From: a virus
Virus record (IMG/VR): IMGVR_UViG_3300046534_001341
Span: 12,846-76,845 of that record
Direction: 5' to 3' (one strand)
DNA: 64,000 nucleotides
Of the stretch, positions 26,242 to 54,780 are shown piece by piece. Below the pieces are notes generated by a model. The model saw only the letters and a list, made by a program, of their open reading frames with translations, was not told the DNA's origin and made no database searches. Both the position numbers and the translations under genes were made by a program. How positions within the stretch are numbered: position 1 is the stretch's first letter; each line of letters starts with the position of its first letter.

Positions 26242-26511
26242 TTACACAGTACACCTCATCAACAATGCTTTCAACCTCAAATCTTTGCCATCCACGAACT
26301 TAACCTTCTGCGGGTTATCCCCCAAAAATTTGTATATTAGATCACTCACGAAAGTACACCCCACCTTTTCATGACCCAACTCAGCACGAATAAGGTAGTG
26401 GGGTAACTCAACTTGTTCCTGACTACGCATCATCTGCTTCATAAGCTCAACCGTGTAATACCTGTCAGGCTTACTCCCCTCATAAACGAATCTTACATAA
26501 TCATCACTCAT
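26242..26511 (-). CDS. Small protein with LKxLL motif
   Basis: ends KDLRLKALLMRCTV. Confidence 0.6.
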   Translation of the reverse strand: MSDDYVRFVYEGSKPDRYYTVELMKQMMRSQEQVELPHYLIRAELGHEKVGCTFVSDLIYKFLGDNPQKVKFVDGKDLRLKALLMRCTV

Positions 26512-26918
26512 GCCACCACCGCCTTCATAACCGCGGTACCGTAATCCGCTGCCCAATCAATATTCGTAATAGGCTCAGGCTTCGGCCCAACAAGCAAAGC
26601 TCTCAACTTAATAACCTTATCTTCCTCATACCTAACCGCAGTCACAACGTCACTATCAACAAGGTTATTGGCCCAAGTCCTACCACGTTGACTCTCAGGC
26701 AAAACAACAATCATAGGTACCGACTCACCATGTGCCGCCCAAATAGCATTAGCAACACCTGAACCATTAAGCTTAACAACGACATATCTCTCCACACCAT
26801 CTGGGTGTAAGAACATAATAGTGCCACGAGGTTGAATCATAATAATCATCCGCCAAGGAGAAGGGACGACCATCATACACCTACAACTAAGATTCGCCAT
26901 AGACAGTATTCGCTCCAC
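26508..26918 (-). CDS. Small protein with LRxLL motif (start uncertain)
   Basis: KVIKLRALL; ATGA overlap with next gene. Confidence 0.55.
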   Translation of the reverse strand: MERILSMANLSCRCMMVVPSPWRMIIMIQPRGTIMFLHPDGVERYVVVKLNGSGVANAIWAAHGESVPMIVVLPESQRGRTWANNLVDSDVVTAVRYEEDKVIKLRALLVGPKPEPITNIDWAADYGTAVMKAVVA

Positions 26919-32408: not shown

Positions 32409-33164
32409 ATGCCTGATTCAAAGATAGCTCATAACTTCGTTCGTGGTATTACATACAATTGTGTTAAGTACGATGCCACGTATGCCCAGTACCTAAACCG
32501 CATTGGTGAGTTGTACTCAGGTCTAGCCATAAATGAAACCACCTACAAAGAACTAAAACTAAAGAGATTTCTTGGAGTTATGCCATGTCGAGGTCAGTAG
32601 CTGAAAGCGCCCATAGGCGTTGTGTCTCCTATCAAGGGTACGAACAAGCAGTCGATCGTAAGAACTCCCGATGGGATAGAGACACCATCGACGACACCCT
32701 ATCAATGGAAGAGTTCATTCAGGTGGGTAAAGAAATCCGCTTAAAACAACTACTTACGAGGCACCAAAATGGTATCTAAGCTTGTATTCCATGGGTAATG
32801 GTTGTCACACAGCTAAGAAGATAGAGCTGCAAGGTAGGACTGATTACATCCGTGCTGGGTATAAATACTCCACTTACCTACGCATGATCACCTTACGTAA
32901 TATCGGGCGCCATCCTCCTCAAATAATCACACCTATAACTGAAGAGGACTACAACCAGCAGCTCAAAGAGCACGCACTCAAGGAACTGATCTCATGCAAC
33001 GTGACCCAGTAAATGTAAGCCTGTGGCGGTCGTACGCTGATTTCAGGCACTCGTACTACACGTACACCAAAGCCCTCAGTTCTCATTGCACACCAGTTTC
33101 TGAAGAAGTGTACAATCAACGACTCAAAGAAAACAAACTCAAATCACTTTTAATAGGTAAATAA
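32409..33164 (+). repeat. Tandem array of four small genes (32409-32600, 32585-32779, 32782-33012, 32994-33164) ending in LKxLL-type motif
   Basis: Y..Y...E..Y/F...E..LK.LL pattern; overlapping stop/start codons. Confidence 0.7.
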
Positions 33165-33165
33165 C

Positions 33166-35474
33166 TTGAAACAAATATGGATATCACAAGATATTGTTAA
33201 TAGTACTATCACAGCAGGTATCGAAAGCCGTAAGGGTAAGATCGTCAGGGAGAAGGTGTTCCCTGACACCACCCCAAAACAGATAGTCGATGAATGGGCC
33301 AACAAGGAAATCGACATGATGGAGTTACTAATGCTGGAAAACCAAAGTGACACCTGACCCAACTGAGTTCTGGAGGGATATTACATTGAAATCAGCAGAA
33401 GGATACACCTGGGGATGGGAGAAGCAGCGTAGAAACTACGAGGCCACCATCCACTTCGATGGCTTTCAAGTCATAACCAAGAACTTCCCTATAGGTACTG
33501 AGCCAGATGTAATGGCTGCATGGGCCAAAGGGGAGATCCAAGTACGTAAACTCAAAGACCTTATCGCGCCTCCGGCACGTTCCAACCCGTAATTTAACCT
33601 AAATAACTGAGTAACAAATGATCCAAATTAATGAAGTATTCTCATGTGAACGCGACAAATACCAATGGTTGCTTCACCAAAAGAAACCTAAGGGTAAACA
33701 CCCAATCACAGGTGAGTTATCCACAAAAGAAAGCACCTCTGTCACATACCACTCAAACCCTGAGCAGATCATGAATGTGGTGATAAATCGCAGCTTAGGT
33801 AAATGTGAGTCACTTGTAGAGATGCGTGACATGCTCGTAGAGAGCCGTGAGATGGTCTCTAAGGCATGTGCGGCTATAAGTAAAGCCAATACATAGGTGA
33901 GGTATAAATATGGCCAGATACTGGGTTAAATTCAAACGTATCAAGAAGACTAATCGAGTGATGGCAAGCTTGGTTATGCCCACTAATGCAGGGCCAAAAG
34001 TCATGGCCCAGAAAAGCTTCCATGCTTACCAAACCTCTTATGGGACTATTGACCCTAACGTCCAGAAATGGGCAAGTCCCTTAGTGAACATGTATCGGCT
34101 GCTATCTCCACATGGGTGAGCTAAGTGAGATCTACCCTAGGGTACACAGAGCAATTGCAGCACCTTGGGAACCGAAGTACACGAGAGGGTTCGCTTGGGT
34201 AATACCTCCTCACACCAATCTTAGTGAGGTGAAAGTAATCATCCGAGTCAACTCAAAACAACAACGAGAAGAGACATTCAACGCTACAGACATAAAAGCT
34301 ATAGCGAAGTGGATTAACTCACAGACCAAAATCTTAAGGTTAGTCATGCCGGGGGTGTCTAGTGACAGGAGATAACACACAACCTGATAAGATAGTTGGG
34401 CGGATAAGATTACATACCCAACCAATTAATGGATTCTACTGGTCTATGTTCCACGAGCACCCAGATGGTGTGTACGTAATGGCTTCTTACTCAGACCCAA
34501 TTGTAGTTGTAATACAGCTTTACGACAATACTAAGACATTCCCTGCCTCTACACCATGTAGTGACATTGAGGGTTGGGTACTAAAAGAAACCAAGAAGAT
34601 AAACCTGAAGAATTTACTTTTTACTTGTACCAAAACCAATTAATTATAAACCCAAAGGTGGCTACGGCAACCGAAACATAAAGGTATAAACCATGAATAA
34701 ATTAGCATTAGTAATAACCATTGCGGCTATGGTTGGATGCGCATCTGCACCACGTCAATTGCCTGTATTGGTAGATGGTAACAACTATCTAGCTATGGGC
34801 ACCGACTGCTCGTATGGCATGATGAGCCAAAATGTACCTAATCAGCTTGACTGCTACAACGAAGACAAAAAGTACACAGGCAATCGTAAGCCTATGACAG
34901 CCAAAGAGCTTAAGGACTTCTGGGCAATACGAGACCAGAACATCACAGACCGTCAGGTTGATCGATTGAAAACACAGCTACGTAATGGCCGAGGACGTTA
35001 ATGCTAGAGATTACGCAGGAAATTAATTACTACTGTAAAGATGTTAATGGGTACTCATGGGGGGTGACTCAGGAACACAACCGAGCCAGCCCCATCAAGG
35101 TTGAGATTCATACCAAGCCCAGTATAAAAAAGACATTCATCTCCAGCACCCCTAGAAATAGGATCGTAGATTGGATCACCCAAGAGACCGCTAAGCTCAA
35201 GCTAAAAGCCTTGATAGGCCCTAAGGCCAAAGTAGAGTTGGGAAACCCTTGGGAGGGTTTAGTGAAACTTTCAGGGCAGATGAATCAGGTTAAGACTTGC
35301 GGGAGAAGAGTAGGAGTCATCATCTTTGATAGTATAGATAACTACTACGAATCCAACGCCACCCAGTACGTATCCAGCACCAACATACCTGAGTCCAACC
35401 AAGCCGCCGCCTTTGATAAACAAACCGGTAAAAACAAATCCAAAACTAAATACAACAGCCCATACGGGCCATAG
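33166..35474 (+). repeat. Dispersed paralog family (33166, 33347, 34112, 34362, 35001) with F...T...W...E...LK.L(L/I) pattern
   Basis: e.g. VFPDTTPKQIVDEWANKE, NFPIGTEPDVMAAWAKGE, TFPASTPCSDIEGWVLKE, TFISSTPRNRIVDWITQE. Confidence 0.7.
34693..35001 (+). CDS. Lipoprotein
   Basis: MNKLALVITIAAMVGC signal peptide/lipobox. Confidence 0.7.
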   Translation: MNKLALVITIAAMVGCASAPRQLPVLVDGNNYLAMGTDCSYGMMSQNVPNQLDCYNEDKKYTGNRKPMTAKELKDFWAIRDQNITDRQVDRLKTQLRNGRGR

Positions 35475-36097
35475 GAACCACCATGGAACAGTTTATTGTA
35501 GTCATAGTTATAGGGATCTTCTTCTACTACCTAGGATCTAGGGATGGTAAGAAGGATCAGTACAAAAAGGACAAGGCCATGATGGGGGTTATGGAATATG
35601 CCACCATCAAAGCATTTAGGCAAACTAGAGAAAAATGTTTATTGAACGAAATTTTGATTGCAAAGATAGCCTTACTAGAGAAAAACAAAAAAGAAATAGA
35701 TGAAGTCAGTGGTAAATCATCAATTAATACAGGCAAGACCAATGCTGAATAAAAACATACACATAAAAACTGGGATGCTACTCGTAGTAAAGAAAACCTT
35801 CTGGACTACTGCTGCCCACAAGGTTGATACTTTCCACGTGAAGTATCAAATACCTAAAGGTACCATCCTTGAAATACGTTACCCGTATGAGTGGCACTTC
35901 CGCTTTGGAGACAATTGCTGGGCACAAGTACCAGCAGAAACACTGGTTAAGTGTTGTGAGTTCTTTGGTGTGATCCATGAAGATGTAAGGTTCAATAACA
36001 ATAATAGCCTACCTGAAATCATGGAAGAAAATCTGTACTACCCTGCATCTGAATATAAATTGGTTCGTTCCGAATCTGCAAAATAGTTGTTCTCTTC

Positions 36098-36116
36098 CGG
36101 CTAACGCCGTAGGGGG
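36098..36116 (+). promoter_or_regulatory. Hairpin promoter 6, upstream of RNAP II
   Basis: CGGC-TAAC-GCCG-TAGGGGG. Confidence 0.75.
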
Positions 36117-36146
36117 CAACGTCCCCCACACTTTAAGGAAATATCC

Positions 36147-37127
36147 ATGGAAATCAAGAACCTAGAACAAATGTGCATTGAAGACCGCTATTCTCGTAGC
36201 AACATCCGTGCTCGTGTCCTTCTGGACATCATGGATAGTGTTGAAACCGATCTTGCTATAGCCTTCGACAAGGCAGCACAGGCCATTCACAACTATGCCT
36301 ACGGAAAAGTATCACAGACTTATTGGTCATCCAAACTGGTGCGTGTACAGCACCTACGTAACCTATTAGATAAAAAAATGACCATCAATGATCTTGTACT
36401 TGAGATCTTAATTATCGTTATGCCTATGAAGACCGCTCAGCCTATACAGGGGCCGTGTGGTCGCTTAGGTGGTATGTTAGGTTACGGGGATATATTCGAT
36501 GGCGTAAAGACGGCTGCGGAGCTACTAGCAGTAGTGTGCTTCTCAGACCTTTACGACATCATTCCAGCTAGGGAAAGCGAGGGCGACAGTATGTCTATAA
36601 TGCCACGTTACTCCCTAGAAAATGAAACCAATCAGTTCATTTCAGACACCAAGTACCTACCTCCTATGATCTGTAAGCCTGAAGTATTGACTCGCAACTT
36701 TCAGAGTGGGTACCTAACCATAGAAGACTCAGTGATCCTGAAGGGTGTGAACCACCATGAAGAGTATGTATCTCTGGATGTGCTCAACATGGCTAATGGT
36801 ACCGCGCTAGCCTTGGACACTAACATCTTACGTATGAAGGAAAAGCCTAATAAGCCGTTCGATTCACTACATAAAGATGGGTCTGTACCAACAGTTAAAG
36901 TGATCTTGGAACGTGAGAAGAACTTTTTGGAACTGAAGGCAGCATCAAAAATTGTGTACAAAGAGTTACTAGATAACGGCAATGAGTTCTTCAACTGCCA
37001 TAAATTCGACTCTCGTTCACGCAAGTACTCTCAGGGGTACCACGTCCACATTCAGGGAAGTGAGTATAAGAAAGCCATTATTAACCTGGCTACGGAGGAA
37101 GTGATCACAGATGGTATTATCTTATGA
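36147..37127 (+). CDS. RNA polymerase II subunit 1 (N4 gp15 family)
   Basis: YLPPMICKP, SGYLT, HKFDSRSRKYSQGYHVHIQG. Confidence 0.9.
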   Translation: MEIKNLEQMCIEDRYSRSNIRARVLLDIMDSVETDLAIAFDKAAQAIHNYAYGKVSQTYWSSKLVRVQHLRNLLDKKMTINDLVLEILIIVMPMKTAQPIQGPCGRLGGMLGYGDIFDGVKTAAELLAVVCFSDLYDIIPARESEGDSMSIMPRYSLENETNQFISDTKYLPPMICKPEVLTRNFQSGYLTIEDSVILKGVNHHEEYVSLDVLNMANGTALALDTNILRMKEKPNKPFDSLHKDGSVPTVKVILEREKNFLELKAASKIVYKELLDNGNEFFNCHKFDSRSRKYSQGYHVHIQGSEYKKAIINLATEEVITDGIIL

Positions 37128-37559
37128 AAATGCCTGACAGACCTTTCGGTACATTCCCCTACGACATCTTCAATGTGATTACAGATCATGAAGGGGAGTT
37201 CGTACAGCACGCCGTGGCCAGACACTTCACCATGTCCCTGAGTAATGCCCAGCAATGGGTTGATTACCATGAATATTCAATTAAGCGACTAAAGCTTAGA
37301 AAACTCTTGGAAAGTAAAAATGGAAGAACCAAGGCTACCTAAAGGCATGATCCCACCTGATATCTACAGGATTATTATAGGCCGTATTGACGGTGTTCAT
37401 GCAGTAACGGCTTTGTGTCATTACACAGATCTAAACGAAGAAGAGGCATCAGATTGGTTTGCCTTCTATAAGTGGGCAGCAGCAAATCGTGAAGCCCGAC
37501 TAGAACAAGCACACAAAGAAAACCAACTCAAAATATTACTAAGACTCAAAAGGAAATAG
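37124..37559 (+). repeat. Two paralogous small genes (37124-37342, 37320-37559) between the RNAP II subunits
   Basis: P.DI...I......HAV...H.T..L....A..W pattern; ends LKLRKLL / QLKILL. Confidence 0.7.
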
Positions 37560-37561
37560 CA

Positions 37562-38557
37562 ATGCAAACATTCTCAGGTTTAGATTATACAAAGATCGCC
37601 GTAGCAAATGCCTTCGGCAATGATAAAGATGTCTGGGATGATCGCATTGATTGGGCTGAAAAGTTCCTTGAGAAGCAGTCGGCTCATACGATGCGTAAAG
37701 CAGATGAGCCATTCTTAATGAGGAAGGCTGTGAACGCTTACAACGATGCAGTGGCTGGTAAGGCTACTGGTTACATAATGGGCCTAGATGCCACGTCCTC
37801 AGGGCTTCAGATAATGGCTGCCTTGAGTGGTTGCCTGACTACTGCCCGTAACGTGAATCTTATCAATACCGGTTCAAGAGAAGATATATACCTGAAAGTA
37901 ACCAAGCGCATGCAGGAACTGTGCCCTCACCTAAACATCACACGTAACCTTCTAAAGCACCCAATCATGACGTTCTTCTACAACTCTAAGGCGCAGCCTG
38001 AAGGTGTATTTGGAAAGGACACCCCTGAGCTAGATGCTTTCTACGAAGTACTGCATGAACTCCTACCGGGAGCCATGGAAGTAATGCGCATGATTCAGGC
38101 ATGTTGGAATCCTGAAGCCACTGAACATAAGTGGACCGCACCTGATGGACACGTATCTATACCTTTGGTTATGGACTACGTAGACACCAAGATCGAAGTA
38201 GAAGAGTTAGGTAAGGCTACATTCACCCACCGCGCCAAGATCGTTATGTCTGATGAGCGTGGCTTATCATTACCGGCAAATGTGAACCAATCGATTGATG
38301 CTTACATCGTTCGTATGATGTATCGCATGGCTCATAGTCAGGGTTGGGAAATCCTAACAGTACATGACGCATTCTTCTGCACACCGAATAATGTGAATCG
38401 TATGCGTATGAACTACAACAAGATCTTATCTAAGATCGCCTCATCCAACATGCTTTGTGACATCTTGAAAGAGATCACAGGCAATAAGGGAACTATCAAG
38501 AAGATGTCTACTACACTTCCTGGCTTGATCCTTAAAGCAAACTATTCACTTAGCTAG
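37562..38557 (+). CDS. RNA polymerase II subunit 2 (N4 gp16 family)
   Basis: GLDATSSGLQI (motif A), RNLLKHPIMTFFY (motif B), TVHDAF (motif C). Confidence 0.92.
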   Translation: MQTFSGLDYTKIAVANAFGNDKDVWDDRIDWAEKFLEKQSAHTMRKADEPFLMRKAVNAYNDAVAGKATGYIMGLDATSSGLQIMAALSGCLTTARNVNLINTGSREDIYLKVTKRMQELCPHLNITRNLLKHPIMTFFYNSKAQPEGVFGKDTPELDAFYEVLHELLPGAMEVMRMIQACWNPEATEHKWTAPDGHVSIPLVMDYVDTKIEVEELGKATFTHRAKIVMSDERGLSLPANVNQSIDAYIVRMMYRMAHSQGWEILTVHDAFFCTPNNVNRMRMNYNKILSKIASSNMLCDILKEITGNKGTIKKMSTTLPGLILKANYSLS

Positions 38558-38844: not shown

Positions 38845-39513
38845 TACAAAATGAGTGATACAACACAATTAAACAAACCTCTTTGGCATCAGAACCTGAC
38901 ATATGGGCAGGTGGAGGCCGAAGCAGAAAAGGACTATCCTAAGGTTATATACAATCTGCATGAGGATTGTTTATGCCTACGCGAAGAGCTGGCGGCTTTG
39001 AAAGCTGATCGCGGGCTGCTCGTCACTGCGCTTTTATCAATTGTAGATTCTAATAGCTTCGATCCAGATGATGGGCGCTATATGTCAAATATTGCAGAAC
39101 TAGCATTAAAAAAGGCGGCGACAAATGGAGTCTAGACAGGTGATTACAGCGGTAGTGCTGAATGCTCAAAAGCTCACAAACCAGATAGAGGAAAAATCAT
39201 GAAAGCAAAAGAACTACGTGATGAATTCTGGGATGATCATGCTTGCCCCTCTTGGGGACGGTTAGGTACAACAGCCACGCAGAACGATTACCCTGAAGAA
39301 GTCCGAATGGCTTGGACAGACTTCTTATACTTCTCACACGATGCAGGAAACATCTCTGCAGAAGTCATGGACAACACCTTACTGGCTCCTGAATAGGGCC
39401 GCCTCCGTCGGCTGTTTGCCCTGTTCGTAATAGAAGTCTCGCTAGCGAGGAAAAAGTTATGAAACCGATAGGCTAAAAACCTAAAACACCCAAAAGCCTA
39501 CCATAGGCAAACG

Positions 39514-39549
39514 AGCCCCTAACCTTAACCGGTTGGGGGCTTATTTTTT
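39514..39549 (+). terminator. Rho-independent terminator
   Basis: AGCCCCTAACC...GGTTGGGGGCT then TATTTTTT. Confidence 0.8.
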
Positions 39550-39793
39550 GCCAAAGGAGGCAATATGAACGAATTAGATCTTATGAATTTACTGTGGGTA
39601 GTGTGGTTTATTTTATGCACCATCCTATCCTTGGGCTTAGCTATTTATACTAAGTGCGGGGGTGACGCACTGTTATTGATTTTAATGGCTGGTTTCTTTG
39701 GGCCGTTTATATGGGTGCTAATAGGTTTGGCCACTCTCATATTATTGATGGCGTTTTTAGGGGAGCAACTCCTTAAATTCCTAAGGAGGGGGC

Positions 39794-42032
39794 ATGACCA
39801 ATAAGGCAGTATTAGACGAAGATGAGTGCATCGTGTGCACGCACAATAAACATGCAAAAGGCATAATATGGAGGTTGAGGGTGAACAACATTATGACAGA
39901 TAAGCCTGTTGAAGGTGTAAGAAGAGAATTCGTATATTGCAGTTATTGTGATGCGGGCAAAGAACTAGCCAAACAGGAGCTACTACGTGAGCTACTTATC
40001 AAAAAATAACCCTAGAAAGATCTGCCCAGTATGCAAGGATACAGGTAAGACCTGGAAAAACCTACCTAGCGGTGTGCTAGATAAAAGTCCTAGAGGGGTT
40101 ACATACTGCTGGTGCCCTGTAGGTGAGAAAATGGAAAAAAAGAAAGAACTCCGTGACCTGCTTATGGGAGTTAAATCATGACAGAAGGGTGTAAGGCGTG
40201 TGGTTTTGGGTTGCTACCGAAAGAGTATAAAAAATTTGAAGAGCTTCAGCACGAGCAGGGGTCGACCATCCCAATGCAGTATTGTTTTTGTGCTAATGGA
40301 CAGAGACTAGCCAAAGAGGGTCGGCTACGTAATCTACTAACAGGAGAAAAATCGAATCAATATACGGTACCTGACGACGTAGATTACAAAGATGCCGAGG
40401 ATAAGGTAAGGGATTGGTTGGACTTAGGGGTTATATAGTGGGTTACTTAGGTAGGAAATATAACTATAAAGAGCAGTGCAGGACATGCGGGGGCAAGGGT
40501 AGATACCGTGAACGTAGAGCCCCTGATCCTAATGACCCCCATAGGGGTCGTAACCCAACTCAACTATGCCATTGCCCTGCAGGTGAACAAAAGGCTCGTG
40601 ATGAGGCTTGGGATCGGATACAGAATGATAGTTAGACATGTTGAATGCAGGGCCTGTACTAAAGATGCTTGGGACTTACCCAGATGTGTCATAAACCGTA
40701 CAGCACCTGACGGGTCGTTTAGACGAGCCAGTTCTTTTTGCCTGTGTGCGGTAGGTAGGCACCTACTTCAGGTTTACTCACTCAAACAATTATTGAAAGG
40801 AAAGAGGATATGAATGACCTAATACTGTGGGCAGTAGTGACGGCAGTGATGTCAGCGCCTGTAATACTACTCATGAAAATATATGAGTGGAAAGCTTGCG
40901 TGCTCTTTGGGCACCACCCCAGTGAGTGGACGTGGGCGCAGGATGGGTATAACTCCCCTGTGCCTAATGAAGAACGGATCTTGTTCAGCCAGATGCACGG
41001 GCATTGTCGCCACTGCAAAGTGGAGGTACGTACGTTTAGTGAGCAGCATAGACTTACAGCCTATTACACCAAAGAGCAGTGTGCCCAGTACGGGTATGAA
41101 TTCGTTGATAAGAAAGAATACGAACTCAAGAAACTGCTTCTAGGTAAACGTAACGACGATGACCTATTCACTAGAAGTAACCAGATAAATTCAGGCATGC
41201 CTATGTTGGGCACAACAGGAAGGGTGATCAAAGTCGGCTTCCCTAGGAAGCTTATATGAAACAAACAACCAAAAAGTGTCCCAAGTGCGGCAACACTCAT
41301 CTGATCTTACTACAATCCCAGAACCTCAAGGTCTGTATGAACCATAAACCTAAAGCAGTCCTAATTCCTTGGTTCTTGGATAAAGGACAAAGGCCTTTAC
41401 TATGAGAAAAGCTGTCACGTTTAACCCACACTGGGTGGGTGAGGAGCCTGCTTGGGACATCCGTTTATTAAATGGGGATCACCACCGCAGCGTTACTAAA
41501 ACTACTATTTTAGCTGTAAGCACTAGAAGACATGGCACCAGTGTATTGGAGTGCGATGTTCAAGATTACGGCACACACCACTTAAAAATAGCAGCGCAGA
41601 AATGAGCAAGTGCGGTATGTGCTCTCATGATGCTGTACATACCGCGACAGGTATATTACCTCCCCTGCATGATTGGGGTACATTTACCTTTTGTCGTTGG
41701 TGTGTGAAGGGCGCCCAACTCAAAAAAGAACAGGCACTTAGGCAACTACTTAGAGGAGACCCTCCATGTGCAAAACCAGAGATATAAGTAAACCTGAAGA
41801 ATGCGTAATGTGCTCAGAGGGTTGTGACCCAGCCGCCACAGGCAGAAGACCCCACAAAAAGTTCAGTACTGAATTCTGCGTTTGGTGTGATCTAGGTATA
41901 CAGTTGGAAAAGGAACATAACCTCAAGAAATTACTTCTCAATGATAAGAAACCCCGAACAATTGCCGATCTTATACGCAAACAAATGAATGCAAAAGGGG
42001 CGGCCTCCGGCCGCTTTGTTCCCAAAAATTAA
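39794..42032 (+). repeat. Array of small zinc-finger genes (CxxC...Cx(x)CxxG) mostly ending in L[KR]xLL
   Basis: ORFs at 39794, 39987, 40178, ~40438, 40625, 41602, 41766 share the Cys pattern; 40810 and 41256-41405 are also Cys-rich. Confidence 0.8.
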
Positions 42033-42053
42033 TACACCCAAAAAGGAAATACC

Positions 42054-43103
42054 ATGCAGCAGATTACAGCAGTACAAGCACCAGAGTTATTGATGGATGT
42101 AATGAAGGCCGGATTGGTTCCGATGATAGTATCATCCCCCGGCATTGGTAAGTCGTCAATCGCCAAGCAAATTGCAGAAGACCGTAACCTGAAGGTTATT
42201 GATTTACGTTTATCTCAGTGTGATCCAAGTGATCTACTTGGTTTTCCCTCAATCAATAAAGACAAAACCAAAGCTGGTTATGTACCAATGGATACTTTCC
42301 CTATTAAGGGTGATCCAATACCATCACGTACGGTTAATGGTGTAGTCAAACCTTACGCAGGCTGGTTACTTTTCTTAGATGAAATGAACTCAGCAGCAAA
42401 GTCAGTACAAGCAGCGGCTTACAAAATAGTCTTGGATCGACAAGTTGGCCTACATGATCTGCATAAAAGCGTAGCTGTAATGGCAGCCGGTAACCTATCT
42501 ACGGATAAGGCGATCGTGACTAAACTTGGTACGGCCATGCAATCACGTATGGTTCACTTTCACCTACGTGAAGACTTCAAGTCTTGGATGGCATGGGCGG
42601 CGACTTCAGGTATTGATTACCGCATCACTTCTTTCTTGAACTTCAAGCCAGAAGCGTTATTCAATTTCTCACCTGACCACAATGACTGCACTTTCGCATG
42701 TCCTCGTACATGGGAATTTGTGTCTAAGATCGTGATTAATTGGAAAGAGATTGGTTCTGATAAATCACCTTTAATCGGGGGCACAATCGGTGAAGGTATG
42801 GGTCGTGAATTCCTAGCCTTCTGTCAGGTGTTTGGGGAACTCCCAACAATCAGTGAGATAGTTAACAACCCTATGGGTACTAAGCTGTCTGACGAGCCTA
42901 CAGTACGTTATGCCTTAACAGGTATGATTGGGTCACACATCACCCCAAATAACTCAGATGCGTTAATGAAATTTGTTGATCGTATGCCTGTGGAATTTCA
43001 AATCATCACGCTTCAATCAGCACTATTACGTGACCCTAGCCTATTGTCTCAAGGCTCTGCATTCGATGCTTGGGTTACCAAACACGCTTCACGTTTAATG
43101 TAA
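42054..43103 (+). CDS. AAA+ ATPase (N4 gp24 family, MoxR-like)
   Basis: SSPGIGKS Walker A, LLFLDEMN Walker B, AAGN, CPRTWE. Confidence 0.9.
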   Translation: MQQITAVQAPELLMDVMKAGLVPMIVSSPGIGKSSIAKQIAEDRNLKVIDLRLSQCDPSDLLGFPSINKDKTKAGYVPMDTFPIKGDPIPSRTVNGVVKPYAGWLLFLDEMNSAAKSVQAAAYKIVLDRQVGLHDLHKSVAVMAAGNLSTDKAIVTKLGTAMQSRMVHFHLREDFKSWMAWAATSGIDYRITSFLNFKPEALFNFSPDHNDCTFACPRTWEFVSKIVINWKEIGSDKSPLIGGTIGEGMGREFLAFCQVFGELPTISEIVNNPMGTKLSDEPTVRYALTGMIGSHITPNNSDALMKFVDRMPVEFQIITLQSALLRDPSLLSQGSAFDAWVTKHASRLM

Positions 43104-43107
43104 GGTA

Positions 43108-43764
43108 ATGAATATGACGACTCTCGCTGGATTCTTAAAAGAAGTAGAGAACCATAAATTAACAGTGGTTCGGGATGACGGTTTGAATCGTCATATTCGT
43201 TTAGCAGAACCAGGCACAGGTAACTGTCAATTTGATTTAATTACTTGGCCTGGTCATCTGTGTGTCACTGGGGATTGTGGAACTTATGTATTCCAAAGGA
43301 CCAATGACATGTTTGAGTTCTTCCGCCAGAACCAGAAAGGCGAGAAGGAACTGCGCATCAATAGTGGATACTGGTCTGAGAAACTACTCAGCACATGTAA
43401 TCACGGTGGTGTTAAAAAATTCTGTACAGATTTATTCAAGAAACAGTTGGATGACTACATAGAAAACCACTGGGAATTTGAAGATGACGACGACGAAGAG
43501 CTTAAGGCTGTCGAAGTTAAAGCAAAAGTTTTAGCAGAAGTAAATGAAGAAATTGTCACCATACTTGATATGGGTAAAGACATGGCCTTGAACGCAGCCA
43601 TGACTTTCAAGTCCGAATATGGGCACACTTTTGAAGATTTCTGGGATTACGAATTCGACAAGTATACCCACCACTTTTTGTGGAACCTATACTCCATTGC
43701 ATGGGGTATTCAACAATATGACCTCAGCAAGGAATCAGAATGTCCTACTCCAAGCAAGACTTAG
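43108..43764 (+). CDS. Conserved phage hypothetical protein
   Basis: 218 aa, FDLITWPGHLCVTGDCGTYVF, YWSEKL. Confidence 0.75.
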   Translation: MNMTTLAGFLKEVENHKLTVVRDDGLNRHIRLAEPGTGNCQFDLITWPGHLCVTGDCGTYVFQRTNDMFEFFRQNQKGEKELRINSGYWSEKLLSTCNHGGVKKFCTDLFKKQLDDYIENHWEFEDDDDEELKAVEVKAKVLAEVNEEIVTILDMGKDMALNAAMTFKSEYGHTFEDFWDYEFDKYTHHFLWNLYSIAWGIQQYDLSKESECPTPSKT

Positions 43765-44909
43765 AAACAGCTTTTGATAAAGCAAAAATTGGTTTGATGA
43801 CTAAGCACAACAGCATATTCATCACGACCATCCTATTCTCCCTGAAGCATACGTGGGACGAATCCTGCAAGACTGCTGGGACGAATGGGGTCGATTTGGT
43901 AATAGCGCCCACATGGTTCATGAGTATGACTGCAGGAGCCCGTATGGGCCTACTAGCGCATGAAGCATGGCACGTTGCTTTCAACCACATGACCCGTGGT
44001 GACAGCTACGAGCATAAGGAATACAACATTGCTGCTGATCATGTAATTAATGTGATGCTGAAGGATGCTAGTTACGAGCTCCCTGAGGGGGGTTACGGAG
44101 ACTTTAAATACCGTGGTTGGAGTACCGATGAAGTGTATAAAGATCTGCAATCTAACCCAAAGCCGCCGCCACCTAAAGGTGGTGAAGGTTCAGGGGGCTG
44201 CGGTCAGGACATTAAGTACCCAAGTGATGAAAAAGACAAAGATGGTAAGGGTAATACCCAAAAACAAAAAGACAACCTTCAGCGCAAGATAGAAGACACC
44301 CTGATCAAAGCCACCACCCAGTCGAAAATCATGGGTGACGCTGCTGGTACGATCCCAGGAGACATCTCCCGAATGCTGGATGAACTTCTTAATCCAAAAT
44401 TGGATTGGAAGACTTTGTTGAGCAATTATATGAATGCCTTCGCTAAAGAAGACTATTCGTATCAGCGCCCCAACAAACGATTTATGCCTGATTTCTTTTT
44501 ACCTGGTATGCACAGTGAAAGTCTCGGTGAGATTTGTTTTGCATGTGACGCCAGTGGTTCTGTATCGCAGGCAGATTTTACTGCGTACTTGAATGAAATT
44601 AATTACGTGAAGGAAGAGTTGAATCCCGTCCTCACTACCATTATCGATTTCGATACTCGCATTAATAATGTTCACTCTCTCGGACAAGATGATTCGATTG
44701 AAGGTATTAAATTTACAGGTGGTGGCGGTACAAACCTCACTCCAGTATTTGATTACTACAGTGACCGCAAGCCTGTTGTGCTAGTGGTCTTTTCGGATTT
44801 GTACTGTTCAATGATTAAGAATGATCCAGGCTACCCAGTTTTATGGGTGTGCGTGAACAACCCACGGGGCCAAGTAAATTTCGGCACCATAATTCATATT
44901 GACCTTTAG
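43740..44909 (+). CDS. Metallopeptidase-like + vWA domain protein (N4 gp25 family)
   Basis: HEAWH (HExxH), DASGSVS MIDAS, GGGGTN, FSDLY. Confidence 0.88.
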   Translation: MSYSKQDLETAFDKAKIGLMTKHNSIFITTILFSLKHTWDESCKTAGTNGVDLVIAPTWFMSMTAGARMGLLAHEAWHVAFNHMTRGDSYEHKEYNIAADHVINVMLKDASYELPEGGYGDFKYRGWSTDEVYKDLQSNPKPPPPKGGEGSGGCGQDIKYPSDEKDKDGKGNTQKQKDNLQRKIEDTLIKATTQSKIMGDAAGTIPGDISRMLDELLNPKLDWKTLLSNYMNAFAKEDYSYQRPNKRFMPDFFLPGMHSESLGEICFACDASGSVSQADFTAYLNEINYVKEELNPVLTTIIDFDTRINNVHSLGQDDSIEGIKFTGGGGTNLTPVFDYYSDRKPVVLVVFSDLYCSMIKNDPGYPVLWVCVNNPRGQVNFGTIIHIDL

Positions 44910-54462: not shown

Positions 54463-54780
54463 ATGACTCAATCAACAGCATGGCAGCACATGGAGGCCCA
54501 TTATATTAATAAGGTCTCTCGTGCTGAATTCCAAGTAAGTGAAAGAGATAAGACCATTAAAGAGCTGAAGCTTAAACTACTTCTAGCAGGTGTTGTGGGG
54601 GACGGCCCTAAAATACCTACAGACAGTGCTGTTGCTCACGAGTTAGAGCGGACGGAAACTAGTAAGTTCGCAGGTCTTCAAATAAAATCCACAGCCATTA
54701 GCCAAGTGTGTGGTTTGTTGCTTCAAATGGGCTACAGCGACACTGTGATGGTTTTTCAGAAAATCAATCGTAATAATTAG
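54463..54780 (+). CDS. Hypothetical protein with LKxLL motif
   Basis: IKELKLKLLLAG. Confidence 0.6.
   Translation: MTQSTAWQHMEAHYINKVSRAEFQVSERDKTIKELKLKLLLAGVVGDGPKIPTDSAVAHELERTETSKFAGLQIKSTAISQVCGLLLQMGYSDTVMVFQKINRNN

What the first reader, a model, noticed from the sequence alone, without database searches (positions are those of the whole stretch)
39794..42032. Expanded array of zinc-finger microproteins directly upstream of the AAA+/vWA pair
Seen: seven ORFs with CxxC-x(~15-30)-Cx(1-2)CxxG followed by a helix, e.g. YCSYCDAGKELAKQELLRELL, YCWCPVGEKMEKKKELRDLL, YCFCANGQRLAKEGRLRNLL, FCRWCVKGAQLKKEQALRQLL, FCVWCDLGIQLEKEHNLKKLL. The loop between the Cys pairs is hypervariable. One member (~40438-40635) keeps the finger but lacks the LL tag, and another tagged ORF (40810) has a TM anchor. 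Inference: a fixed scaffold with a diversified loop, as in a binder library.
Basis: partly seen in the sequence, partly recalled or inferred. Interest (0 to 1): 0.75.

Follow-up and report, generated by a model that had tools for sequence, protein, structure and literature searches.

The report
Zinc-finger microprotein array in N4-like phage
A marine and sea-ice N4-like phage carries a tandem operon of seven small four-cysteine (probably zinc-binding) proteins from a family seen in almost no other sequence, and most end in a short helix that many unrelated small proteins of the same phage also carry; what they do is not known.

Summary
Seven + strand ORFs of 61-88 aa between 39794 and 42032 share CxxC, a 21-33 residue loop, [YF]-C-x(1-2)-C-x-x-G, then a helix. 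Leave-one-out profiles recover six of them (E 4e-10 to 2e-6). The tail-less member is borderline (E 0.068). The membrane-anchored ORF at 40810 is not recovered.

The family has no match in Pfam, PHROGs, NCBIfam, PADLOC or PDB. A profile search of 1.84 billion proteins found only seven relatives, all unnamed metagenome proteins that correspond one-to-one to individual paralogues.

The array fills the variable island between the RNAP II genes and the AAA+/vWA pair of a complete 76.8-kb N4-like phage. N4 itself and relatives with 42-53% AAA+ identity have the pair but no array, so I see no conserved link to it.

Loops differ between paralogues. Between orthologues they keep their length and are 60% identical, against 76% for the scaffold. 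The genome has no reverse transcriptase. This points to old, specialised paralogues rather than a diversifying library.

The tail K-E-x-x-L-[KR]-x-L-L is enriched genome-wide (18 genes against 1.4 expected) and appears to be selected at the protein level. Other small proteins with unalignable heads share it.

Earlier unchecked notes of this scan describe similar shared-tag arrays in other phages. The function is inferred: small binder modules with a common docking or oligomerisation helix.

The parts
39513..39552 (+). Intrinsic-terminator-like hairpin (12 bp stem, 7 G-C pairs, T-run) that closes the upstream unit; the array operon starts just after it
   Evidence: sequence read
39565..39804 (+). 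First gene of the unit: 79-aa hydrophobic (membrane) protein with a strong AAAGGAGG ribosome-binding site; overlaps Z1 by 11 nt
   Evidence: no Pfam match
39794..40009 (+). Z1, 71 aa, Cys4 finger with a 33-residue loop and tail LRELL
   Evidence: leave-one-out E 3.7e-8; orthologue P0010
39987..40181 (+). Z2, 64 aa, GTG start inside Z1's tail codons (CAGGAG ribosome-binding site), 24-residue loop, tail LRDLL
   Evidence: (E 4.1e-10); orthologues P0006 and P0015 keep the same N-terminus; variant contig with 4 synonymous and 3 replacement changes here
40178..40438 (+). Z3, 86 aa, 27-residue loop, tail LRNLL, then a 32-residue extension that orthologues do not conserve
   Evidence: (E 6.2e-7); orthologues P0007 and P0009
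40438..40635 (+). Z4, 65 aa, GTG start, CxxCxGxG-like first knuckle, 26-residue basic loop, no L[KR]xLL tail; probable member
   Evidence: rank 1 but E 0.068; P0002 is the same sequence
40625..40813 (+). Z5, 62 aa, 27-residue loop, tail LKQLL followed by K-G-K-R, which is encoded by the ribosome-binding site of the next gene
   Evidence: (E 2e-6)
40810..41259 (+). Z6, 149 aa: N-terminal hydrophobic anchor, first CxxC, degenerate second knuckle, tail LKKLL; membership doubtful
   Evidence: not recovered, E 9
41256..41405 (+). Interloper: 49-aa CPKCG...C..H zinc-ribbon-like protein, not of the family
   Evidence: (phrog_25658 E 6.6e-4)
41402..41605 (+). Interloper: 67-aa protein with no Cys motif and no family match
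41602..41787 (+). Z7, 61 aa, ATGA-coupled start, 23-residue loop, tail LRQLL
   Evidence: E 4.2e-10; orthologue P0012; AF2 model
41766..42032 (+). Z8, 88 aa, 21-residue loop, tail LKKLL, then a conserved 31-residue extension
   Evidence: E 3.7e-8; orthologue P0005
42054..43103 (+). Context: AAA+ ATPase (N4 gp24-like), 21 nt downstream of Z8
43740..44909 (+). Context: DUF2201_N zincin plus DUF2201 vWA-like protein (N4 gp25-like)
   Evidence: E 4e-39 and 7e-25

Best explanation
The stretch is a lineage-specific tandem expansion of one undescribed family of small cytoplasmic Cys4 (most probably zinc-binding) proteins. It sits in the hyperplastic island that N4-like phages keep between the RNAP II genes and the gp24/gp25-like AAA+/vWA pair. 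Each protein has four parts. First comes a CxxC knuckle. Then comes a 21-33 residue paralogue-specific loop, probably a beta-hairpin. Then comes a [YF]-C-x(1-2)-C-x-x-G knuckle that starts a helix of about 17 residues. The helix ends in K-E-x-x-L-[KR]-x-L-L. The genes overlap or abut and are probably made as one translationally coupled operon that begins after a strong terminator and runs into the AAA+ gene. I think they most likely act as small stoichiometric binders in host takeover or counter-defence. In that picture the metal site holds a minimal scaffold, each loop recognises that paralogue's own target, and the shared C-terminal helix gives all of them one common partner or a common oligomerisation interface. 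At least ten other small proteins of this phage, with heads that cannot be aligned to these, carry the same helix. Shown here: paralogy, rarity, conservation of the loops and the tail in orthologues, coding-type variation, genome-wide enrichment of the tail, and selection on the tail mostly at the protein level. Inferred: zinc binding, the fold, that they bind anything, and what reads the tail.
For: Paralogy and invariant Cys4+Gly. Novel, narrow family: no significant Pfam, PHROG, NCBIfam, PADLOC or PDB match. In 1.84e9 representatives only seven non-self relatives were found, each matching one paralogue; the only other hit is an EGF-repeat false positive. Real genes: orthologues conserve sequence; a natural variant contig shows 5 synonymous against 3 conservative replacement changes; most starts have a Shine-Dalgarno site; gene junctions overlap by 1 to 23 nt. 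Maintained loops: 60% orthologue identity with no indels, against 76% for the scaffold and 39% after the tail. Helix after the second knuckle in both AF2 models, and a hairpin between the knuckles in one. Tail: L[KR]xL[LI] occurs in 18 of 76 + strand genes against 1.45 in residue shuffles (maximum 7 in 2000). In the last 25 residues it occurs in 11 against 0.21, and with this array left out in 7 against 0.19. Synonymous codons in the tail vary about as genome usage predicts. Profile-profile comparison with two other tail-bearing families aligns only the 11-14 tail residues. The tail is kept in orthologues, including P0017 of a non-finger family. Island position: N4 gp17-gp23 is the same slot and holds accessory genes.
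Against: No experiment or homology ties any member to a function. The AF2 models are poor (mean pLDDT 58 and 57), so the fold is unproven, and fold searches found nothing. Seven of eight proteins are basic (pI 8.4-10), which fits nucleic-acid binding as well as protein binding. The Gly and basic residues after LL coincide in frame with the next gene's Shine-Dalgarno sequence, so part of the 'tail' is junction architecture. In this array the tail is the end of the helix that begins at the second knuckle, so it could simply be part of the fold's core rather than a free docking element. One member (Z4) does without it.
Confidence: 0.42

Rival explanations
1. They are small nucleic-acid-binding zinc-finger regulators, working like P2 Ogr/Delta or Mu Com, which tune phage middle or late transcription or translation. 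Each paralogue would read a different site, and the helix would contact a polymerase.
For: Seven of eight are basic (pI 8.4-10, net charge up to +7.6). They are 61-88 aa Cys4 proteins. They lie just downstream of the RNAP II genes, and two tail-bearing genes lie between the RNAP II subunit genes.
Against: No hit to Ogr_Delta, Mu Com, TraR/DksA or any other zinc-finger model, even at E <= 1. N4 and its studied relatives manage the same transcription programme without them. No repeated candidate operator sites were seen in the array.
Confidence: 0.2
2. The constant tail is mainly a by-product of gene-junction architecture. It would be a conserved end-of-gene cassette (helix end, Gly, Shine-Dalgarno, next start) that preserves translational coupling and marks where cassettes are duplicated or swapped, like T4 PeSL-mediated shuffling. 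It would not be a docking motif.
For: The residues after LL (x-G-K/E-K/R) are in-frame translations of GGAG/AGGA ribosome-binding sites for the next gene. Z3 keeps an AGGAG right after its tail with no start behind it. Similarity between Z3 and its two orthologues stops a few residues after the tail: 4-5 of 32 identical there, and post-tail against scaffold p 2e-10. The first Leu codon is CTC in 8 of 17 tails against 10% genome usage. A 29-nt direct-repeat family covers four tails at 66-76% identity. PeSL precedent: PMC2839356, PMC4122927.
Against: K-E-x-x-L-[KR]-x-L-L lies 5' of the Shine-Dalgarno site. Except for the first base of the first Leu codon (p 0.002) and the third base of the variable codon two places after it (p 0.009), conservation at each of the 36 tail bases is what the amino acids plus genome codon usage predict (overall p 0.0125). 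DNA identity between tails is too low for homologous exchange now. The motif is also kept where it is internal (Z3, Z6, Z8, and the gene at 35001) and in two ORFs on the minus strand.
Confidence: 0.15
3. The finger proteins are adaptors or substrates of the adjacent MoxR-type AAA+ / vWA-zincin pair, docked through the shared helix (the hub idea in the first-stage notes).
For: They are immediately adjacent and probably co-transcribed in this phage. The vWA partner has a metallopeptidase domain.
Against: The pair is conserved across Schitoviridae. The array and the tail are not: neither was found in N4, and no family member was found upstream of the AAA+ gene in Zuri, VBP47 or the metagenome relatives L003 and L005-L009. 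None of the three genes of the pair region carries the motif. Most tail-bearing genes lie 5-16 kb away.
Confidence: 0.1
4. They are decayed remnants of HNH or homing-endonuclease zinc fingers, or otherwise functionless ORFs that persist in a junk island.
For: Z3 weakly matches the C-terminal 57 positions of an HNH PHROG (phrog_9645, E 0.0067). N4-like phages are rich in HNH genes, and one sits in this slot in relative L003.
Against: No His or Asn column is conserved. No other member hits HNH models. The profile finds nothing else in this genome. Orthologues conserve the whole core and natural variation is mostly synonymous.
Confidence: 0.05

Closest known systems
DnaJ cysteine-rich (CxxCxGxG) zinc centres and the small DnaJ-like zinc protein Anti-TRAP (PF00684, PF15777)
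   Same: Both are small Cys4 metal sites. The first knuckle of Z4 and of orthologue P0015 reads exactly CxxCxGxG, and Z2 and Z3 are close to it. From my own knowledge, Anti-TRAP is a ~53-aa zinc protein that acts purely by binding another protein, which is the kind of mechanism I propose here.
   Different: There is no significant HMM match: Pfam gave none at E <= 1, NCBIfam DnaJ_bact gave E 0.072 for 1 of 14, and the Atlas lead scored only 0.83. The second knuckle is C-x(1-2)-C-x-x-G followed by a long helix, not a second CxxCxGxG. Four members have no Gly-rich first knuckle.
T4 internal proteins (IPI-III, Alt) with the capsid targeting sequence, in a polymorphic locus
   Same: Diverse small accessory proteins of one phage share a short portable peptide that addresses them to one common partner (CTS described in PMC3012670). 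They are encoded in a hyperplastic region.
   Different: The CTS is N-terminal, is cleaved by the prohead protease and targets the scaffold core. Here the motif is a C-terminal helix in early/middle-region genes. No protease site or virion link is known.
PeSL cassettes and hyperplastic regions of T4-type phages (PMC2839356, PMC4122927)
   Same: Small ORFan genes sit in a variable island between conserved modules. The gene ends double as expression signals for the next gene. Orthologue similarity breaks at the junction after Z3's tail.
   Different: PeSLs are non-coding promoter/stem-loop DNA repeats with high nucleotide identity. Here the repeated element is coding, conserved at the amino-acid level and only 66-76% identical as DNA.
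Phage zinc-finger regulators Ogr/Delta (P2/P4), Com (Mu) and TraR/DksA-like proteins
   Same: They are 60-90 aa phage proteins with one Cys4 finger and an adjoining helix. From my own knowledge they act by binding RNA polymerase or mRNA.
   Different: No profile match. Those are single-copy genes, not seven-fold arrays, and none has the L[KR]xLL end.

Membership tests
DnaJ-type CxxCxGxG zinc finger / Anti-TRAP | Significant match to PF00684, PF15777 or TIGR02349 | tested here: not met
   Pfam gave no hit at E <= 1. NCBIfam DnaJ_bact gave E 0.072 in 1 of 14 members.
DnaJ-type CxxCxGxG zinc finger / Anti-TRAP | Both metal-binding knuckles of the form CxxCxGxG | tested here: not met
   Only the first knuckle of Z4 and P0015 fits. 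The second knuckle is C-x(1-2)-C-x-x-G in all members.
HNH / His-Me finger endonuclease | Conserved catalytic His and Asn/His between the Cys pairs | tested here: not met
   The invariant columns are four Cys and one Gly only. There is a single weak PHROG hit, E 0.0067, for Z3.
Treble-clef / zinc-ribbon fold group | Knuckle, beta-hairpin, second knuckle at the N-terminus of a helix, with four ligands around one Zn | tested here: inconclusive
   The AF2 model of Z7 gives strands 14-18 and 27-31, then helix 35-50. The model of Z2 gives helix 44-60. Mean pLDDT is only 57-58. Foldseek against PDB and BFVD found no match at E <= 0.001. Metal binding cannot be tested here.
Diversity-generating retroelement target (hypervariable binder library) | Reverse transcriptase and a template repeat near a variable repeat | tested here: not met
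   No RVT_1 match in the 100%-complete genome. No long repeat pair in the array. Orthologue loops are conserved without indels.
RiPP-like precursor array with a dedicated maturase | Radical-SAM or other maturase encoded with the tagged small ORFs | tested here: not met
   No Radical_SAM match in the genome. The neighbours are AAA+, vWA-zincin and ThyX.
MoxR AAA+/vWA accessory or adaptor proteins | Conserved co-occurrence with the AAA+/vWA pair across relatives | tested here: not met
   The pair is present but no family member was found in N4, Zuri, VBP47, L003 or L005-L009.
T4-type CTS-tagged internal proteins | N-terminal tag cleaved by the prohead protease; proteins found in the virion | not testable with these tools
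   The tag here is C-terminal. No proteomic data exist. This is an analogy only.

The most novel reading that the evidence does not exclude
This phage clade runs a modular tag-and-reader system. At least 17 small proteins from four or more unalignable head families, seven of them zinc fingers, carry one portable C-terminal helix, K-E-x-x-L-[KR]-x-L-L. The helix docks them all onto a single receptor, either a host machine or a phage one such as the AAA+/vWA-zincin. The finger array would then be a set of target-specific adaptors that deliver different host proteins to a common fate.
Probability: 0.18. Interest if true: 0.8.

Novelty: new variant of a known kind. Interest (0 to 1): 0.5.

Why it matters
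Small ORFan genes in phage variable islands are where many anti-defence and host-takeover factors have been found, but most cannot be grouped or tested sensibly. This case offers a clean set to work with. It has seven paralogues on one minimal metal-stabilised scaffold, with loops that differ between paralogues but are maintained between phages. It also has a short helix shared with unrelated small proteins of the same phage. If the helix is a docking element, one receptor would explain about 17 genes at once. If it is not, the array still gives a natural series of loop variants on a 60-residue scaffold for interaction screens. The result also removes a tempting but unsupported link to the conserved and still unexplained gp24/gp25-like AAA+/vWA pair of N4-like phages.

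Tried and rejected
- Pfam, PHROGs, NCBIfam, PADLOC and a PDB sequence search with single proteins and with the profile: nothing significant.
- Two AlphaFold2 runs with a 14-sequence alignment: mean pLDDT 58 and 57. Foldseek against PDB and BFVD on these models: no match at E <= 0.001, as expected for poor models.
- ESM Atlas: only unnamed viral clusters at 0.91; family leads (Anti-TRAP, HVO_B0008_N, DpnI) scored 0.83-0.86, which the tool rates as leads only.
With P0005 and P0009 in IMG/VR it found none.
- tblastn of P0005 and P0009 against GenBank phages: none.
- Using the AAA+ protein as an anchor in IMG/VR and JGI metagenomes gave only relatives at 25-53% identity, none with the array.
I therefore could not fetch the DNA of the relatives (contigs of 76,718, 6,239, 3,478, 2,224 and 1,374 nt), and codon-level dN/dS for loop against scaffold was not possible.
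- Sequencing runs: no RNA holder was listed, so nothing can be said on expression. The DNA holders are ice and seawater metagenomes. The X3 and X4 contigs cover only parts of the stretch.
- Membrane-targeting amphipathic helix (MinD/FtsA-like) as a reading of the tail: hydrophobic moments are only 0.08-0.46 with three Leu, so it is weak.
- Beta-clamp motif (QL[SD]LF, from memory): the first position is Leu, not Gln, so I dropped it.
- DGR and RiPP readings: no reverse transcriptase and no radical SAM.
- Sigma-70 promoter scan of the region: fewer sites than in shuffles, so uninformative.
- Literature searches for N4-like zinc-finger paralogues or phage zinc-ribbon takeover proteins: nothing relevant.
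Full report
WHAT THE WINDOW IS

The window is most of a complete 76,845-nt virus record. The + strand block from about 25 kb onward has the N4 order:
- small early ORFs;
- a split single-subunit RNA polymerase, with 37562-38557 matching Pfam RNA_pol at E 3e-22;
- a run of small genes;
- an AAA+ ATPase (42054);
- a DUF2201_N zincin plus DUF2201 vWA protein (43740);
- ThyX and a MazG-like gene.

The only DNA-level matches in GenBank phages are to the ATPase genes of the Schitoviridae phages Zuri and VBP32/VBP47. In N4 itself the slot between gp16 (RNAP II) and gp24/gp25 (ATPase/vWA) holds gp17-gp23, a mix of accessory genes. The finding occupies exactly that slot. Near-identical DNA occurs in ice and seawater metagenomes.

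THE OBSERVATION

The quoted peptides are all there. Seven ORFs carry the full pattern of CxxC, a spacer, [YF]-C-x(1-2)-C-x-x-G and a helix.

| ORF | Coordinates | Note |
|---|---|---|
| Z1 | 39794-40009 | |
| Z2 | 39987-40181 | GTG start |
| Z3 | 40178-40438 | |
| Z4 | 40438-40635 | GTG start |
| Z5 | 40625-40813 | |
| Z7 | 41602-41787 | |
| Z8 | 41766-42032 | |

The spacers are 21-33 residues. Across the seven, and across 14 sequences once orthologues are added, the only invariant residues are the four Cys and one Gly.

Leave-one-out profiles, searched against all 1586 six-frame segments of the genome, recover Z1, Z2, Z3, Z5, Z7 and Z8 at rank 1 with E 4e-10 to 2e-6. The best non-member scores E >= 0.28. 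Z4, which lacks the tail, ranks first but only at E 0.068. Z6 (40810-41259) has a membrane anchor, the first CxxC and the tail but a decayed second knuckle, and it is not recovered (E 9). So I count six firm paralogues, one probable and one doubtful.

Two unrelated small genes interrupt the array: 41256-41405, a different CPKCG...C..H ribbon, and 41402-41605.

ARE THEY GENES?

- Every junction from 39565 to 42032 overlaps by 1-23 nt. Most starts have a Shine-Dalgarno site (AAAGGAGG, TAAGGAGG, CAGGAG, GGGAG, AAAGGAAAGAGGA, AGAGGAG), and three starts are ATGA couplings.
- A 12-bp, G+C-rich hairpin with a T-run at 39513-39552 closes the previous unit just before the first gene, a 79-aa membrane protein.
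- A profile search of 1.84 billion representative proteins found seven non-self relatives.
- Each relative matches one particular paralogue: P0010 with Z1; P0006 and P0015 with Z2; P0007 and P0009 with Z3; P0012 with Z7; P0005 with Z8.
- The paralogues are therefore older than the split between these phages.
- A variant contig in a second ice metagenome differs at eight listed positions in Z2/Z3. Five changes are synonymous and three are conservative replacements.
- No RNA run was available, so transcription and translation remain untested.

HOW NEW IS THE FAMILY?

Pfam, PHROGs, NCBIfam, PADLOC and the PDB sequence search gave nothing significant. The one long hit of the big profile search is an EGF-repeat protein, a cysteine-pattern artefact. 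The family was not found in GenBank phages or IMG/VR by the searches I could run.

Phages whose AAA+ ATPase is 42-53% identical, as well as N4, Zuri and VBP47, show no member upstream of the ATPase or anywhere in the fetched loci. The family therefore belongs to a very narrow clade. Its adjacency to the AAA+/vWA pair is not conserved.

STRUCTURE

AlphaFold2 with the 14-sequence alignment gave poor models, with mean pLDDT 58 for Z2 and 57 for Z7. Both place one continuous helix from just after the second knuckle to the LL of the tail (Z2 44-60, Z7 35-50). The Z7 model also places a hairpin (14-18, 27-31) between the knuckles.

A knuckle, a hairpin, and a second knuckle at a helix N-terminus make up the treble-clef arrangement, but confidence is too low to claim it. 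Fold searches were empty. Zinc binding is inferred from four invariant Cys in small cytoplasmic proteins.

LOOPS: LIBRARY OR SPECIALISED PARALOGUES?

Between paralogues the loops cannot be aligned. Between orthologues they keep their exact length. They are 60% identical (108/179), against 76% (125/164) for knuckles plus helix (Fisher p 0.002) and 39% after the tail. In the closest pairs the loop is 19/21 (Z8) and 18/23 (Z7) identical.

There is no reverse transcriptase and no radical-SAM gene in the genome, and no template-like repeat in the array. The loops evolve somewhat faster than the scaffold but are maintained. That fits old sub-functionalised paralogues, each with its own surface, and does not fit an actively diversifying library.

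THE TAIL

- L[KR]xL[LI] occurs in 18 of 76 + strand genes, against 1.45 in residue shuffles (maximum 7 in 2000 shuffles).
- It lies within the last 25 residues in 11 genes against 0.21 expected, and in 7 against 0.19 when this array is left out.
- Two more copies lie in minus-strand ORFs near 26.3 and 26.6 kb.
- The fuller motif is K-E-x-x-L-[KR]-x-L-L.
- Profile-profile comparison of the finger family with two other tail-bearing families (32409-33164 and 37124-37559) aligns only the 11-14 tail residues.
- Orthologues keep the tail, including P0017 of the 37320 family.
- N4 has no such enrichment: 1 gene against 1.1 expected, and none at a C-terminus.

PROTEIN OR DNA SIGNAL?

I resampled synonymous codons from genome usage. 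This reproduces the observed conservation at 34 of the 36 tail bases (overall p 0.0125). One exception is the first base of the first Leu codon (p 0.002): that codon is CTN in 16 of 17 tails and CTC in 8 of 17, against 10% genome-wide and 16% before Lys/Arg. The other is the third base of the variable codon two places after it (p 0.009). I cannot explain either.

The residues after LL (x-G, then K/E/R) are a different matter. They are in-frame translations of the next gene's Shine-Dalgarno sequence. Z3 keeps AGGAG after its tail with no start codon behind it, and similarity between Z3 and its two orthologues ends a few residues after the tail. So the gene end is a composite. It has a protein-selected helix end followed by a junction cassette, and the junction may be a place where neighbours are replaced.

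I tested the idea here only in this limited way.

MECHANISM

I think the most likely account, at about 40%, is as follows.
- These are minimal metal-stabilised binder modules used in host takeover or counter-defence.
- Each loop gives a paralogue its own target.
- The shared helix gives a common partner or a common oligomerisation interface.

The main rivals, with my odds:
- nucleic-acid-binding regulators (most members are basic), about 20%;
- the tail as mostly junction architecture, about 15%;
- adaptors of the neighbouring AAA+/vWA-zincin, about 10%, weakened by the lack of co-occurrence;
- decayed HNH fingers or junk, about 5%.

A membrane-targeting reading of the tail is weak because the hydrophobic moments are only 0.08-0.46.

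COMPARISON WITH KNOWN SYSTEMS

The first knuckle of some members resembles the DnaJ/Anti-TRAP CxxCxGxG motif, but membership fails the profile and motif tests. HNH membership fails for lack of catalytic residues.

The nearest analogues are functional, not family members. One is the T4 internal proteins with a shared capsid-targeting peptide in a polymorphic locus (PMC3012670). The other is PeSL-bounded cassettes in T4 hyperplastic regions (PMC2839356, PMC4122927).

Unchecked notes of this scan report shared C-terminal tags on small-protein arrays in several other uncultured phages. That suggests a recurring pattern, but it is not independent evidence.

VERDICT

This is a real, very rare family in a real paralogue array. 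The library and AAA+/vWA inferences are not supported. The function is unknown and only inferred. I rate it of moderate interest, mainly because of the shared helix, which reaches beyond this stretch.

Noticed in passing
window 32409-37559 (+), about 26242-26918 (-), 54463-54780 (+): At least ten further small ORFs, with heads that do not align to the finger family, carry K-E-x-x-L-[KR]-x-L-[LI], mostly within 10 residues of the C-terminus. Two of them sit between the two RNAP II subunit genes. The enrichment is significant even without the finger array (7 against 0.19 expected).
   Followed up: partly
window, first Leu codon of the tail in 17 ORFs (for example 40152, 40781, 41125, 41922): The first Leu of the tail is encoded by CTC in 8 of 17 cases, against 10% genome-wide usage (binomial p 1e-4; p 0.005 against the Leu-before-Lys/Arg context). 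The third base of the variable codon two places later is also more conserved than resampling predicts (p 0.009). The other synonymous positions of the tail behave as expected. Unexplained.
   Followed up: partly
window 40325-40438: Z3 continues for 32 residues past its tail. An AGGAG directly after the tail has no start codon behind it. The two orthologues (P0007, P0009) have unrelated extensions. This looks like a lost or replaced downstream cassette fused in frame.
   Followed up: partly
window 41256-41405: A 49-aa CPKCG...C..H zinc-ribbon-like ORF of a different family (phrog_25658, E 6.6e-4) is interleaved in the array and ends in P-L-L.
   Followed up: no
window 43108-43764: A 218-aa gene is wedged between the AAA+ and vWA genes. 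N4 has no gene there and Zuri only a 183-nt ORF. It has a weak Pox_D5-like match (E 0.0012, below the Pfam cut-off).
   Followed up: no
window 36147-37127: The gp15-like ORF in the small RNAP II subunit position (no Pfam match) carries an internal H-L-R-N-L-L at residue 70, the same core as the tail. N4's annotated proteins show no such motif.
   Followed up: no
window 39400-42200 in public runs: The phage is present, nearly identical, in two ice metagenomes, and in part in two seawater metagenomes from four studies. One ice sample holds a second allele of Z2.
   Followed up: partly
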